DNA from: the human T2T-CHM13v2.0 reference genome, Homo sapiens
Length of the DNA: 64,000 nucleotides
Assembly (NCBI RefSeq): GCF_009914755.1
Contig: NC_060931.1
Reading direction: 5' to 3' (one strand)
Both the position numbers and the translations under genes were made by a program. Shown here one piece after another: positions 19,699 to 42,138 of the stretch (the first letter of the stretch is position 1; each line of letters opens with the position of its first letter). The notes under the pieces are model-generated. The model saw only the letters and a program-made list of their open reading frames with translations. It was not told the origin of the DNA and did not search any database.

Positions 19699-20589
19699 TT
19701 GTGTCACATTATGTCATGGAGAAAGGGGTGTGTGTGTATGGAGAGGAGAGAGGAGGTTTCACTTTCCATCTATTAAGAAAGGAGTTGAATACATTCCTCT
19801 CAAAAAATGTTTTCTTAACTTATTAGAAACAACAACTCAGAAACTCTAAATATCTAGTAAATTAGTAACAAATATATCCTAAATTTATGTGGGTCAAATT
19901 AAAAGTTTAAGGGTCTATGTACTGGGCAGTTCTTTAAATTTGCATTCAAATGAGAGATGGGACTCCAGGTGTGTCTTCTAAACTTTGGACCTAACCATTT
20001 CTGGAACCATTCCTGGGCTGTCAGGTGGGAAGACGGGTGCCAGTAGTTCCGTGAGAGACGTTTCATGTCAGCTAGCACTGGGAGGAACAAGCCCCCACAG
20101 CTTACCTAGAAATGCCAGCTAAGAGTCATGGGCTGACAGGCTCTGGGGCAATCAGAGAATCAGAGAGAGGCTGGGAAAATGAGAGCTGCTTGTTCAGGCT
20201 GCCTTACTTTCTTTGCACCTACCCAGCCAGAGACACACCTACTAAAGCTCCAGGTTTTACAAAAAGCAAAGATGCACTCTCCAGCCCACCCTGTCTTGCT
20301 CTCCAGCTGGTAGCTGGAACACGGTCCAAATACATGCTTAACATCACAAAAACTTCTTTCCTTTCACTTACCTAAGCACACCCGAACTAACCTAACCTGA
20401 AACCCCAAAAATATGCCTCCCTTGGCCTCTGGAGCAAGTCAGTTTTGAAAGCAGTCCTATCAGCAAAGACACCAGGCAGCCTCTCTCACCCCTACCACCA
20501 TCATCTGCTGGCACCCAGAAAAGTGGCACAGGGTGAAGGCAAACTCGATCGAAGAGCCCTCCGAGAAATCGTACGTTCCTCTCACTTAC

Positions 20590-20884
20590 TTTGAGTTGGA
20601 AACGTCCTCTCTGGCGCTCAGTCTGCCTTTGTTGCAAGGGGCGAGGTTGCTACCGCTGAGTCCAGGTACCCGGCTCGCTGCAGCTCCTGCTTGGGCCGCT
20701 GCTGCTCTCCCCGCCTTCTGGACGGATGACTCACTGGTCTCTTTCTTCCCCTCTCTCCACTTTGGATTTTCCTCTGCTCTGGGGCTCTCTTGGCGGGATT
20801 TTTGGACTGGAAGGCGGGGAACCTGATCCTGCCTTTGACTCAATTACGCCCTGACAGGGAGGGAACGGAAGGGAAATGGAGAAT
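20590..20884 (-). other. PTN: PTN (pleiotrophin) untranslated exon 1 (5'UTR)
   Basis: The reverse complement (ATTCTCCATTTCCCTTCCGTTCCC...GCAGGAGCTGCAGCGAGCCGGGTACC...GAGAGGACGTTTCCAACTCAAA) matches my recollection of the human PTN mRNA 5'UTR. It ends at a consensus donor AAA|GTAAGT (ACTTAC at 20584-20589) and is GC/CpG-richer than its flanks. The 5' end is approximate: Inr-like CCATTCT at ~20884, and longer cDNAs reach ~20950. Confidence 0.93.
20727..20842. promoter_or_regulatory. Two perfect AP-1 sites inside PTN exon 1
   Basis: TGACTCA at 20727-20733 and 20836-20842, with an E2F-like TTGGCGGGA at 20790-20798 between them. Motif matches only. Confidence 0.5.
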
Positions 20885-21150
20885 GGGAGGGATGAGAGGA
20901 GCGGGCCAGGAGGACGAAGGCTGGGCGAGGGAGGGAGAGCGCTTTGCACTCGAGAGCTGATTGGGAAGCTTATTAAAAGCAGAATACTCCAGGGGCAGTC
21001 TCTCCCTGCGGAGCAAGAAAACGGATTTGAACCAAGAGGCCATGAGATGGTACCTTGTTTTGTTTTTAGCAGAGACGAAACACAACATTTCTTTTCCAAA
21101 CTCCACCCATGATCTATTCTTCAGATGAGTGCAAAGCCACTTTGCCAAAT
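20885..21150 (-). promoter_or_regulatory. PTN: PTN proximal promoter with CCAAT box and no canonical TATA
   Basis: ATTGG at 20960-20964 (CCAAT on minus) ~75 bp upstream of the Inr-like site, followed by an AT-rich TTTTAATAAG element (minus) at ~20969-20978; pyrimidine-rich tract around the start. Confidence 0.8.
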
Positions 21151-23028
21151 AGGATATTTTAAATGGACAATTGATGGCATTTTAGGTTACATTTTTGGCC
21201 CCCCACAATCCTTTAATGATATTCAGAATGGAAAAGCACTCTCTTCAAACCAGCCTCTTCTTCCACCCACGAAAGCCCTCTCTAAACACAGAGACAGTAA
21301 GGTGTCAGTCACATCTCACCTGCAAAGCACAAAATGTACAAAGTACTTTTTCTCAATTGTCACAAAGAGTGACAGACGTCTCAAAGTTCCCAATTAAGTG
21401 CTACTTACCTTTAGGGAGAGCTCTTTCCTTTTTTGGTTTCCTTGGTGCCTTTAGCAACCTATTTAGTAACATGCCTTTGACACCCAAGAATTTAGAGGAT
21501 TCGTCAAAGTAGCTCAAACTCTGAGGTTTGTAAAACTTGGAGGCTGGGCTTTGCGTCTCTGGAATTGTCATTTCATTCAATACAGGAAAGACGCTAAGGC
21601 AATGCATAGGTAAATATTTATGATAAAGATGAGATAAAAGTATTGTGTAAAAGGATTAAGATGTATTATACAAATTCACCCAAACATTTTCGAAATGTAA
21701 ATTTCGAGATTTTCTGCCACTTATCAGCTTTTCCTGCTCCGTGGCTAGCTCCTTTTACCTACTTTTACCTTTACTGGTCAGCTTATCATTTGATGGCGTC
21801 CTTCCCAAATTGGTTGTAAAATAGACCACATTTTTCATAATTCTGAGGTTACATCCCTTCATTTCAATTTGACAAATATTTATTAAGCAATTTGTTTACT
21901 TAGAACTATCCTTAAATCCCCAAATTAGAAGCATTGTCTTGTGGCAAGTAGTTTTTAGGGACTTGGGGCTCTTCTATTGACAGCTACCTGTAGAAATGTC
22001 CCTTGGAGAAGTTGACTGGAGCCAGACGTGGCTCTACAAACTCAATCAAGCAGTCAATCAAGCTTTTCAAAAGGAAAGGCATCAGAGATGCACTTACACA
22101 CCTACAATTTATCCCCCTTCCCAAACTCTTCATATACATACCACATACAATTCTCAAATGAAATAACTAAATAAGGAAGCTGTGTTCCTTTCTCCTACAC
22201 ACAGGCTTCAGGTTACCTGTTTTCCTTTTGTGATTCCACTTCTGTGTGAAGCAAGCAGTGCTTGTTTTAATCAGATTTCACCTGTATAAAGTGTGGAGAA
22301 ACGCACATTAGCATTTTTTTTTGGCATTTTTCCCAGTCCCTTTACCAAAAAAGATATCTCAGCATTCTATTAACACTCCATAGGGGCAAAGTTTCTAAGG
22401 CATTGAACAAAGAGCTATCCATTTTCTTTCTGTTCTTCAGCTTTATGTTAACATATACAAATGTAACATACAGCTAGCTACCAGTTAGGTGAACAATGCT
22501 GGCTTGATTGAGGTGTTCTCTATAGGGCTGATAAAGTAAGCATGAGATTCCCATGATTTCTACTCAATTACATATGTTACACCAAAAATATCACCCTTTA
22601 TTCAGATGGGTATATACTAAAATTGTATACATCAGTGATTATCAATTGGGAGCAGTTTTGCCCTCCAGGAAAAGGGAATAATGTCTGGAGATAGTCTTGG
22701 TTGTCGCAACTTGGTGGAAGGGGTTGCTCTGGATCTAGTGGGTAGAAGCCGGGGATGCTGTAAAACATCATACAATGCATAGGACAGCCTTTGTTACCAG
22801 AAAGCGGTCCCGGTCCAGACCCCAAGAGAGGGTTCTTGGATCTCAGTTGCAAGAAAGAATTCAGGGCAAGTTCATAGAGTAAAGTGAAAGCAAGTTAATT
22901 AGAGAGGTAAAGGAATAAAGAATAGCTAGCTACTCCATAGGCAAAGCAGCCCCAGTGGCTTCTGGCTGTCCATCTGTTTGGTCATTTCCTGATTGTATGC
23001 TAAACAAGGGGTAGGTTATTCATGAATT

Positions 23029-23058
23029 TTCCTGGAAAGGGGTTGGCAGCTCCCGGAA
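23029..23058. promoter_or_regulatory. GAS (STAT1) element pair in MER41B: one intact, one with a mismatch
   Basis: TTCCTGGAA at 23029-23037 fits TTCNNNGAA; CTCCCGGAA at 23050-23058 has one mismatch. Confidence 0.7.
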
Positions 23059-23082
23059 CTGAGGGTTCTTCCCCTTTTTAGA

Positions 23083-23102
23083 CCATATATGGTAACTTCC
23101 TG
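23083..23102 (-). promoter_or_regulatory. CArG box plus ETS site (serum-response-element architecture) in MER41B
   Basis: CCATATATGG at 23083-23092 fits CC(A/T)6GG; ACTTCCTG at 23095-23102 (CAGGAAGT on minus) is 2 bp away. Confidence 0.6.
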
Positions 23103-23829
23103 ACACTGCCATGGCATTTGTAAACTGTCCTGTGCTGGTAGGAGTGACTTTTGGCATGCTAATGTGTTATAATTAGCATGTAATGAGCAGTGAGGACGAC
23201 CAGAGATCACTCTCGTGGCCATCTTTGTTTTGGTGGGTTTTGGACGCCTTCTTTACAACAAGCTGTTTTATCAGCAAGTTCCTTATGACCTGTATCTTGT
23301 GGCAATCTCCTATCTCATCCTGTGACTTAGAATGCCTAACTTCCTGGGAATGAAGCCCAGTAGGTCTCAGCCTTATTTTACCCAGCACCTATTCAAGATG
23401 GAGTCGCTCTGGTTTAACCGCCTCTGACACCTCCACAACAAAGAATTATTTGGCCCAAAATGTTAACAGGGCTGAGGTTAAGAAAACCTAATGTTATTCA
23501 CCATGGTATTTTAAAAATGCAAAGACGGATTAAAGAGAGTTTTTTTTTTAATAAATAGAAATTTATGAGATTGAGATTAGTCATAATTTAATTCAATCCA
23601 GCATTTTCATCAAAGTTGAAGTAGAATGTTTTTTAATACACAGTGAAATACTCAGTTTCAAATCCGAACTTCATCCTACGGCATAGTCAGGGGTCTGTTG
23701 ATTCCAGAGTCCAAGTTATTTCATTCATTAGGCTAATATTCTTTAAGCACTTAAGTCTTTAGCTTGATAGAGCTATGAAGAAAAACTGTTGACAGTCCCT
23801 ACTCTCAGATAGCCTATGTTGTTGTTCTT

Positions 23830-35723: not shown

Positions 35724-36070
35724 ATAGTATTCCCACTTTTAATCAAATGTCAATTAAGGTGCAGGTTATTCAGAACTTTCTGGAAAAGGGACAGAGAGTT
35801 TCCAGAACCATATAAGATAACTTCCAGGCCATTGCCATGGTCCACAGCCATGGCATTTGTAAACTGTCATGGTGCCTGTAAGAGTATCTTTATGCTATCG
35901 ACCAGTGGGGCAACTAGAGGTTGCTTTCATTGCCATTTGCTGGTTTTGGCTGGGTTCTTCACTGCATCTGTTTTGACCAGAATTTTCTTCAATCAGCAGG
36001 GTATTGGCTAGAAAACAAGTCCTGCTAGCCTTCTATCTCATCCCTCCCCTTAGAAATTACACACTCTTCC

Positions 36071-41355: not shown

Positions 41356-42138
<783 letters not shown>

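What the first reader, a model, noticed from the sequence alone, without database searches (positions are those of the whole stretch)
22792..23429. A MER41B LTR may supply the interferon-gamma response element of PTN
Seen: a complete MER41B solo LTR 1.9-2.5 kb upstream of PTN exon 1, with an intact GAS TTCCTGGAA (23029-23037) and a 1-mismatch partner (23050-23058). Established: MER41B LTRs are primate-specific STAT1-bound, IFNG-inducible enhancers, AIM2 being the classic case. Recalled and unverified: PTN was reported to be IFNG/JAK/STAT1-induced in macrophages through a GAS near -2086 to -2078. Counting from a start at 20951, that interval falls exactly on 23037-23029. Inference: PTN's interferon inducibility is an ERV-donated primate innovation. 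It would be a second retroviral co-option at PTN besides the known placental HERV-E promoter. I do not know whether this link has been published.
Basis: partly seen in the sequence, partly recalled or inferred. Interest (0 to 1): 0.8.

Follow-up and report, generated by a model that had tools for sequence, protein, structure and literature searches.

The report
Retroviral LTR with STAT1 site upstream PTN
A complete relic of an ancient retrovirus sits about 2 kb upstream of the human growth-factor gene PTN and carries the only perfect interferon-gamma (STAT1) binding motif in that region, so it is probably the gene's reported interferon switch, one more case of a known kind.

Summary
Window 22792-23429 is a full-length 638-bp solo LTR. 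The genome holds thousands of candidate copies, with TG...CA ends and 4-bp flank duplications. It keeps the 43-bp segment that a review says separates MER41B from MER41A. TTCCTGGAA at 23029-23037 is the only perfect TTCNNNGAA between 17072 and 26693. Its one-mismatch partner lies 21 bp downstream. Both sit where the family carries its tandem GAS pair, so the LTR brought the motif in.

Li et al. 2010 and Chuong et al. 2016 are not held. The position -2086 to -2078, and the species of the promoter tested, therefore stay recalled. The geometry fits. A TATA-like box at 20978-20969 on the minus strand makes a start near 20951 plausible, and that places the motif at -2078 to -2086. From the RefSeq start at 20884 it lies at -2145 to -2153. 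No tool here could test STAT1 binding, an effect on PTN, or absence from mouse.

None of the 8 held papers that name both MER41 and PTN or pleiotrophin links the two. My reading is a probable, unreported new member of the known MER41B interferon-enhancer class. It is moderately interesting and not surprising.

The parts
22792..23429 (+). Complete 638-bp solo LTR of the MER41B type, antisense to PTN (T2T chr7:138654792-138655429)
   Evidence: 29 of 39 other scored copies align 1-638 at 81-85% identity. TG...CA ends and no second copy in the window; it keeps the 43-bp segment that 2 of 60 other copies lack.
22788..22791 (.). Left copy of the 4-bp target-site duplication (CCTT)
   Evidence: The right copy, 23430-23433, reads CCTC (3 of 4). 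Among 36 end-to-end copies, 17 have a perfect and 14 a 3-of-4 duplication.
23430..23433 (.). Right copy of the target-site duplication (CCTC)
23029..23037 (.). Perfect palindromic GAS, TTCCTGGAA (LTR positions 238-246)
   Evidence: the only TTCNNNGAA between 17072 and 26693. The same aligned place is a perfect GAS in 38 of 58 other copies that keep the segment.
23050..23058 (.). Degenerate partner GAS, CTCCCGGAA, one mismatch (LTR positions 259-267), 21 bp downstream of the first
   Evidence: The same aligned place is a perfect GAS in 43 of 58 other copies.
20969..20978 (-). TATA-like box TTTTAATAAG of the PTN core promoter, with an inferred start near 20950/20951
   Evidence: It lies inside the RefSeq protein_binding_site 20964-20983 given with the finding. 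The start is inferred from spacing and was not measured.
20590..20884 (-). PTN exon 1 (NM_002825.7), non-coding
   Evidence: Annotation supplied with the finding. The sequence was read.

Best explanation
Window 22792-23429 is a complete solo LTR of an ancient gammaretrovirus-like ERV, of the MER41B type. It is inserted antisense 1.9-2.5 kb upstream of PTN exon 1. At the place where its family carries a tandem STAT1 (GAS) module, it has one perfect palindromic site and a one-mismatch partner 21 bp away.

Most likely it acts as an interferon-gamma-inducible enhancer of PTN. IFNG activates JAK1/2. Phosphorylated STAT1 dimers bind the perfect GAS, possibly helped by the weak partner. Transcription from the TATA-type PTN promoter about 2.1 kb away then rises. 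It is most probably the same GAS that Li et al. 2010 reported as essential for IFNG-regulated PTN promoter activity.

Shown here: the LTR identity, the motif, its inheritance from the family, and the geometry. Inferred: STAT1 occupancy, the effect on PTN, identity with the published site, and restriction to primates.
For: LTR identity:
- Thousands of first-look candidates and full-length alignments at 81-85% identity.
- TG...CA ends in 36 of 36 end-to-end copies. The 4-bp duplication is perfect in 17 of 36 and 3 of 4 in 14 of 36. The PTN copy has CCTT/CCTC.

B type:
- The PTN copy and 58 of 60 other copies keep LTR positions 234-276.
- L051 lacks exactly 43 columns there and L064 lacks 37. This matches the review's statement that MER41A lost the STAT1 motif through a 43-bp deletion (PMC9963469, passages).

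Inheritance of the motif:
- Perfect GAS at site 1 in 38 of 58 copies, at site 2 in 43 of 58, at both in 25 of 58, at neither in 2 of 58.
- The AIM2-proximal element has the same pair at the same 21-bp spacing and aligns to LTR positions 236-324.

Uniqueness and geometry:
- It is the only perfect TTCNNNGAA between 17072 and 26693.
- The TATA-like box at 20978-20969 puts a start near 20950/20951. From there the GAS is at -2078 to -2086 (arithmetic).

Literature:
- The title of Li et al. 2010, seen in two reference lists, says IFN-gamma/JAK/STAT1 signalling is critical for PTN expression in macrophages.
Against: - The key paper could not be read. The numbers -2086 and -2078 are recalled, and no listed paper holds them together with pleiotrophin. 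Whether the reporter was the human or the mouse promoter is unknown to me.
The RefSeq start 20884 gives -2145 to -2153.
- The GAS pattern alone is at chance frequency in the window.
- Only one of the two sites is perfect here, whereas both are perfect at AIM2.
- From recall of Chuong 2016, which I could not see, only a minority of MER41B copies bind STAT1.
- The longer RefSeq promoter feature, 20678-22842, stops 187 bp short of the GAS. At least one curated promoter fragment therefore works without it.
- The named MER41B copy at AIM2 shares only about 90 bp with this copy (72% over 89 bp, E 7e-5). It is a poor anchor for the subfamily name.
- No ChIP, chromatin or expression data could be consulted.
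Confidence: 0.55

Rival explanations
1. Inert relic. The LTR is one of thousands of decaying copies that happen to keep a GAS. STAT1 does not bind it in chromatin, or binds without effect. The IFNG response of PTN runs through another element or indirectly, for example through IRF1 or NF-kB. The published GAS is in another sequence, for example the mouse promoter.
For: Most copies keep at least one perfect GAS (56 of 58), so keeping one says nothing about selection at this locus. The motif alone is at chance frequency. The published position and species are unverified. A RefSeq promoter feature ends at 22842 without the GAS.
Against: If the recalled position is right and refers to the human gene, only this site fits: there is one perfect GAS in 9.6 kb. 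At about 1 GAS per 2 kb, the chance of an unrelated one falling within the roughly 70-bp range of plausible starts is a few percent (my estimate).
Confidence: 0.25
2. Site turnover rather than innovation. The LTR GAS is functional in humans, but IFNG inducibility of PTN is older than the insertion. Mouse Ptn responds too, through a different element, so the LTR replaced or duplicated an ancestral input.
For: Nothing here shows that the mouse lacks the response. From recall only, the same laboratory also worked with mouse macrophage lines. The review cited lists several inflammatory cytokines that induce PTN, which suggests broad inflammatory control.
Against: No data here on either side. MER41 is described as primate-specific and as a source of primate-specific interferon responses.
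Confidence: 0.15
3. The LTR is a regulatory element in a different setting, for example a trophoblast or haematopoietic enhancer. MER41B copies are enriched among those. It would not be the interferon switch of PTN.
For: MER41B is among the ERV families with enhancer marks in human trophoblast stem cells. It is also enriched in K562/HeLa-S3 enhancer regions. PTN is expressed in trophoblast.
Against: The held supplementary tables of Frost et al. 2023 list only the LTR2B promoter for PTN. There was 1 occurrence of PTN in the 4 searched files, and one PDF could not be read. Nothing ties this particular copy to trophoblast activity.
Confidence: 0.05

Closest known systems
MER41.AIM2, the MER41B LTR upstream of AIM2 (Chuong, Elde and Feschotte 2016, known here only through reviews)
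   Same: Both have a tandem GAS pair at 21-bp spacing at the homologous LTR place. Both lie upstream of, and antisense to, a gene reported as IFNG-induced. The proposed mechanism is the same: STAT1 binds an LTR-borne GAS.
   Different: The AIM2 element shares only about 90 bp with the full-length copies and has both sites perfect. It lies 220 bp from the start according to the review, against about 2.1 kb here. It was deleted by CRISPR with loss of induction, which has not been done here. The PTN copy is a complete 638-bp LTR with one perfect and one degenerate site.
HERV-E.PTN / LTR2B placental promoter of PTN (Schulte et al. 1996, cited)
   Same: It is also an ERV-derived regulatory element co-opted at the same gene.
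   Different: It belongs to a different family (LTR2B/HERV-E). It lies in an intron at hg38 chr7:137268352-137268846, outside this window. It acts as a trophoblast-specific promoter giving chimeric transcripts, not as an upstream inducible enhancer.
MER41A LTRs
   Same: Per the review they are nearly identical in sequence. Two such copies appeared among the 60 relatives (L051, L064).
   Different: They lack the 43-bp segment with the GAS pair. The PTN copy keeps it.

Membership tests
MER41B LTR (ERV1, primate) | Dispersed repeat with thousands of copies and a unit of about 630-640 bp | tested here: met
   There were 4189 and 3170 first-look candidates, with 40 scored each time. 29 of 39 other places align 1-638. 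PMC4419796 lists 2,852 MER41B copies, classed as Primates (table passage).
MER41B LTR (ERV1, primate) | LTR hallmarks: TG...CA ends and a 4-bp target-site duplication | tested here: met
   The PTN copy has TG...CA ends and CCTT/CCTC flanks. Among 36 end-to-end copies, 36 have TG...CA, 17 a perfect duplication and 14 a 3-of-4 duplication.
MER41B LTR (ERV1, primate) | Keeps the 43-bp segment with the STAT1 motif that MER41A lacks | tested here: met
   The criterion comes from review PMC9963469. The PTN copy keeps LTR positions 234-276. L051 lacks exactly 43 columns there and L064 lacks 37.
MER41B LTR (ERV1, primate) | Best match to the curated MER41B model rather than MER41C, D, E or G (Dfam/Repbase) | not testable with these tools
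   No repeat library is on hand. My impression that it matches MER41B is recall only.
MER41B LTR (ERV1, primate) | Homology to a copy named MER41B in print (MER41.AIM2) | tested here: inconclusive
   Only 89 bp align at 72% identity, E 7e-5, over the GAS module. Only 158214336-158214425 of the AIM2 upstream region matches any of the fetched copies.
MER41B LTR (ERV1, primate) | Present only in primates, with an empty orthologous site in mouse | not testable with these tools
   No other mammalian genome is held. The median substitution distance to other copies is 0.16 (JC 0.18). This gives 41-90 My depending on the rate assumed, compatible with the review's 45-60 My.
IFNG-inducible, STAT1-bound MER41B enhancer (Chuong type) | Intact GAS at the family's motif place | tested here: met
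   Site 1 is perfect and site 2 has one mismatch.
IFNG-inducible, STAT1-bound MER41B enhancer (Chuong type) | STAT1 occupancy and gain of active chromatin after IFNG | not testable with these tools
   No ChIP-seq or ATAC data are available here.
IFNG-inducible, STAT1-bound MER41B enhancer (Chuong type) | The neighbouring gene is induced by IFNG | tested here: inconclusive
   I saw only the title of Li et al. 2010 and one review sentence. The paper itself is not held, so the species and cell type were not seen.
IFNG-inducible, STAT1-bound MER41B enhancer (Chuong type) | Loss of induction when the element or its motif is removed | not tested
   This needs a bench experiment. The recalled reporter mutagenesis of Li et al. 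2010 could not be checked.

The most novel reading that the evidence does not exclude
The interferon-gamma inducibility of human PTN in macrophages exists only because a MER41B LTR landed 2 kb upstream in an anthropoid ancestor. The functional GAS mapped in 2010 would then be retroviral DNA that nobody recognised as such. PTN would carry two independent ERV co-options: an LTR2B/HERV-E promoter for trophoblast and a MER41B enhancer for inflamed macrophages. Mouse models would lack the IFNG-PTN link in plaque angiogenesis.
Probability: 0.3. Interest if true: 0.55.

Novelty: new member of a known kind. Interest (0 to 1): 0.4.

Why it matters
If confirmed, a promoter element mapped functionally years before the MER41 work would be re-read as ERV-derived. 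That would add a growth and angiogenesis factor to a list made mostly of immune genes. It would also warn that mouse models may not reproduce IFNG control of PTN in atherosclerotic plaques or tumours. PTN would become a rare gene with two separate retroviral regulatory donations. It does not change the general picture: MER41B copies as IFNG-inducible STAT1 enhancers are established, and hundreds of such copies lie near genes.

Tried and rejected
- Reading the two key papers failed. Li et al. 2010 was not held by DOI, PMC id or PubMed id, and Chuong et al. 2016 was not held. A PTN review under a PMC id I recalled was not held.
- Searches for a secondary quotation of the GAS position found nothing useful. 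Passages read in PMC7795262, PMC6160751 and PMC12719510 were irrelevant.
- Using the AIM2 element as a named MER41B reference gave only a 90-bp match, so I dropped it as a subfamily anchor.
- I considered an IRF/ISRE site in the LTR (TAAAGTGAAA, 22880-22889) and gave it no weight. None of 50 copies has a perfect GAAANNGAAA there. The one-mismatch pattern is very common in the window, with 252 matches.
- The supplements of Frost et al. 2023 list only the LTR2B promoter for PTN.
- I built no multiple alignment, consensus or profile of the LTR copies, because they are proviral sequence. All comparisons were pairwise to the PTN copy.

Full report
WHAT IS THERE

TTCCTGGAA lies at 23029-23037 and CTCCCGGAA, one mismatch from the GAS pattern, at 23050-23058, 21 bp start to start.

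As a bare pattern, TTCNNNGAA is not enriched in the window: 32 matches against 29.06 expected, and 31 of 100 shuffles reach 32. It is, however, the only perfect match between 17072 and 26693. That is the only one within 3.8 kb downstream and 5.8 kb upstream of the RefSeq start of PTN.

THE ELEMENT IS A COMPLETE SOLO LTR

A search of the window's own assembly with 22792-23429 gave 4189 first-look candidates, of which 40 were scored. Of the 39 places other than the query itself, 29 align from base 1 to base 638. All 39 cover at least 23-623, at 81-85% identity.

I fetched 37 of those 39 copies. A second search with the 3' half (23110-23429) gave 3170 candidates, 40 scored, and 30 loci were kept. 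It added 23 further distinct copies, for 60 in all.

The ends and flanks fit a retroviral integration followed by solo-LTR formation:
- The PTN copy starts TG and ends CA, and is flanked by CCTT on the left and CCTC on the right.
- Among the 36 other copies that align end to end, all 36 have TG...CA.
- The four bases on either side are identical in 17 of those copies and match at 3 of 4 in 14.
- No second copy lies in the 64-kb window. Only two partial matches of 49-72 bp occur, at 35843-35891 and 41623-41694.

The median substitution distance to the other copies is 0.16 (Jukes-Cantor 0.18). On a star tree this gives 41-90 My depending on the rate assumed. That is compatible with the 45-60 My a review gives for MER41 (PMC9963469, passages).

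WHICH FAMILY

No repeat library is available, so the name MER41B cannot be tested directly. One criterion from print can be. The review states that MER41A and MER41B are nearly identical, except that MER41A lost the STAT1 motif through a 43-bp deletion.

Among the 60 relatives, L051 lacks exactly 43 alignment columns over LTR positions 234-276 and L064 lacks 37. The other 58, and the PTN copy, keep the segment. By that criterion the PTN copy is of the B type.

The set is biased, because these are the copies most like the PTN copy. The share of deleted copies therefore says nothing about the genome as a whole.

A comparison with the one copy named in print was weak. I located AIM2 through its HIN-domain exons and fetched 20 kb upstream. 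There I found TTCTGGGAA and, 21 bp further, TTCCCGGAA at C1:158214339 and 158214360. These align to LTR positions 236-324 of the PTN copy at only 72% over 89 bp, E 7e-5. Only 158214336-158214425 matches any fetched copy (19 HSPs). The AIM2 element thus shares the GAS module and its spacing, but little else that pairwise BLAST can detect.

THE GAS PAIR CAME WITH THE LTR

Among the 58 other copies that keep the segment, I looked at the places aligned to the two PTN sites:

| Perfect TTCNNNGAA at | Copies (of 58) |
|---|---|
| First site | 38 |
| Second site | 43 |
| Both sites | 25 |
| Neither site | 2 |

The PTN copy, with one perfect and one degenerate site, is of the commonest kind. Keeping a site is thus no sign of selection at this locus. 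It does show that the motif is retroviral in origin and not a chance local match.

GEOMETRY RELATIVE TO PTN

The LTR lies 1908-2545 bp upstream of the RefSeq exon 1 end (20884) and is antisense to PTN. On the minus strand a TATA-like TTTTAATAAG occupies 20978-20969. This is inside a RefSeq protein-binding feature, 20964-20983.

A start at 20950/20951 would lie 25-28 nt downstream of that box, which is the usual spacing. From 20951 the GAS is at -2078 to -2086. From 20884 it is at -2145 to -2153.

The longer RefSeq promoter feature (20678-22842) ends 51 bp into the LTR and does not include the GAS.

THE LITERATURE LINK

Li et al. 2010 (FASEB J 24:810) is not held. [quoted passage not shown] I also saw one review sentence saying that IFN-beta and IFN-gamma stimulate PTN in monocytes and tumour cells.

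No listed paper holds pleiotrophin together with both numbers. I do not know whether the reporter was human or mouse.

If the recalled numbers are right and refer to the human gene, this must be the site, because it is the only perfect GAS in 9.6 kb. At about one GAS per 2 kb, an unrelated site would fall within the roughly 70-bp range of plausible starts only a few percent of the time. I put the identity at about 0.8.

IS THE LINK IN PRINT?

Three searches covered the question:
- MER41 + pleiotrophin: 5 papers.
- MER41B + PTN as whole words: 3 held, 2 listed.
- MER41 + PTN: 7 held, 6 listed.

Together they give 8 distinct works. I read the matching passages in all 8.

PTN appears there only in three roles: as the gene with the placental HERV-E/LTR2B promoter, as overlapping an intronic HARLEQUIN element, or in a reference title. 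MER41 appears separately in each. None links the two.

The search covers open-access full text and bioRxiv only. The main texts and supplementary tables of Chuong 2016 and of Schmid and Bucher 2010, which might list this copy, could not be seen.

MECHANISM AND VERDICT

The best-supported reading is that the LTR is an IFNG-inducible enhancer of PTN of the Chuong type. STAT1 dimers would bind the perfect GAS, perhaps with help from the weak partner 21 bp away.

The steps shown here are the LTR identity, the motif, its inheritance and the geometry. STAT1 binding, the effect on PTN and primate restriction are inferred.

The 'primate innovation' step is the weakest. It fails if mouse macrophages also induce Ptn with IFNG. 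This is a probable new member of a well-known class, a neat re-reading of an older promoter study and not a surprise.

Noticed in passing
L021, G000:C1:158214336-158214425 (upstream of AIM2): The AIM2-proximal element carries two perfect GAS sites 21 bp apart. It shares only about 90 bp with 60 full-length MER41-type copies by pairwise BLAST (72-76% over 68-93 bp). The textbook MER41.AIM2 enhancer therefore looks like a short or very diverged fragment rather than a full LTR.
   Followed up: partly
window 19757-19766, minus strand: A perfect GAAAGTGAAA (IRF/ISRE-like core) lies in PTN intron 1, about 1.1 kb downstream of the RefSeq start, on the PTN strand. It is one of the perfect GAAANNGAAA matches in the window and could be an alternative interferon input. 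It was not examined further.
   Followed up: no
window 21427-21436: The RefSeq 'transcriptional_cis_regulatory_region' reads CCTTTTTTGG, a CArG-box (serum response element) pattern. This fits the serum and PDGF responsiveness of PTN mentioned in the review read.
   Followed up: no
window 35843-35891 and 41623-41694: Two short stretches match LTR positions 291-360 at 79-84% identity. They may be fragments of related LTRs or of another repeat sharing that segment.
   Followed up: no
window 22792-23429: NCBI's soft-mask list supplied with the finding does not include this 638-bp LTR, although the genome holds thousands of candidate copies. The mask used for this assembly misses medium-copy LTRs.
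   Followed up: partly
L051 (G000:C7:146509745 region) and L064 (G000:C2:135351619 region): These two copies have a gap of 43 and 37 columns exactly over the tandem GAS module. They are otherwise full length (1-638, 75-77% identity), matching the MER41A-type deletion described in print.
   Followed up: yes
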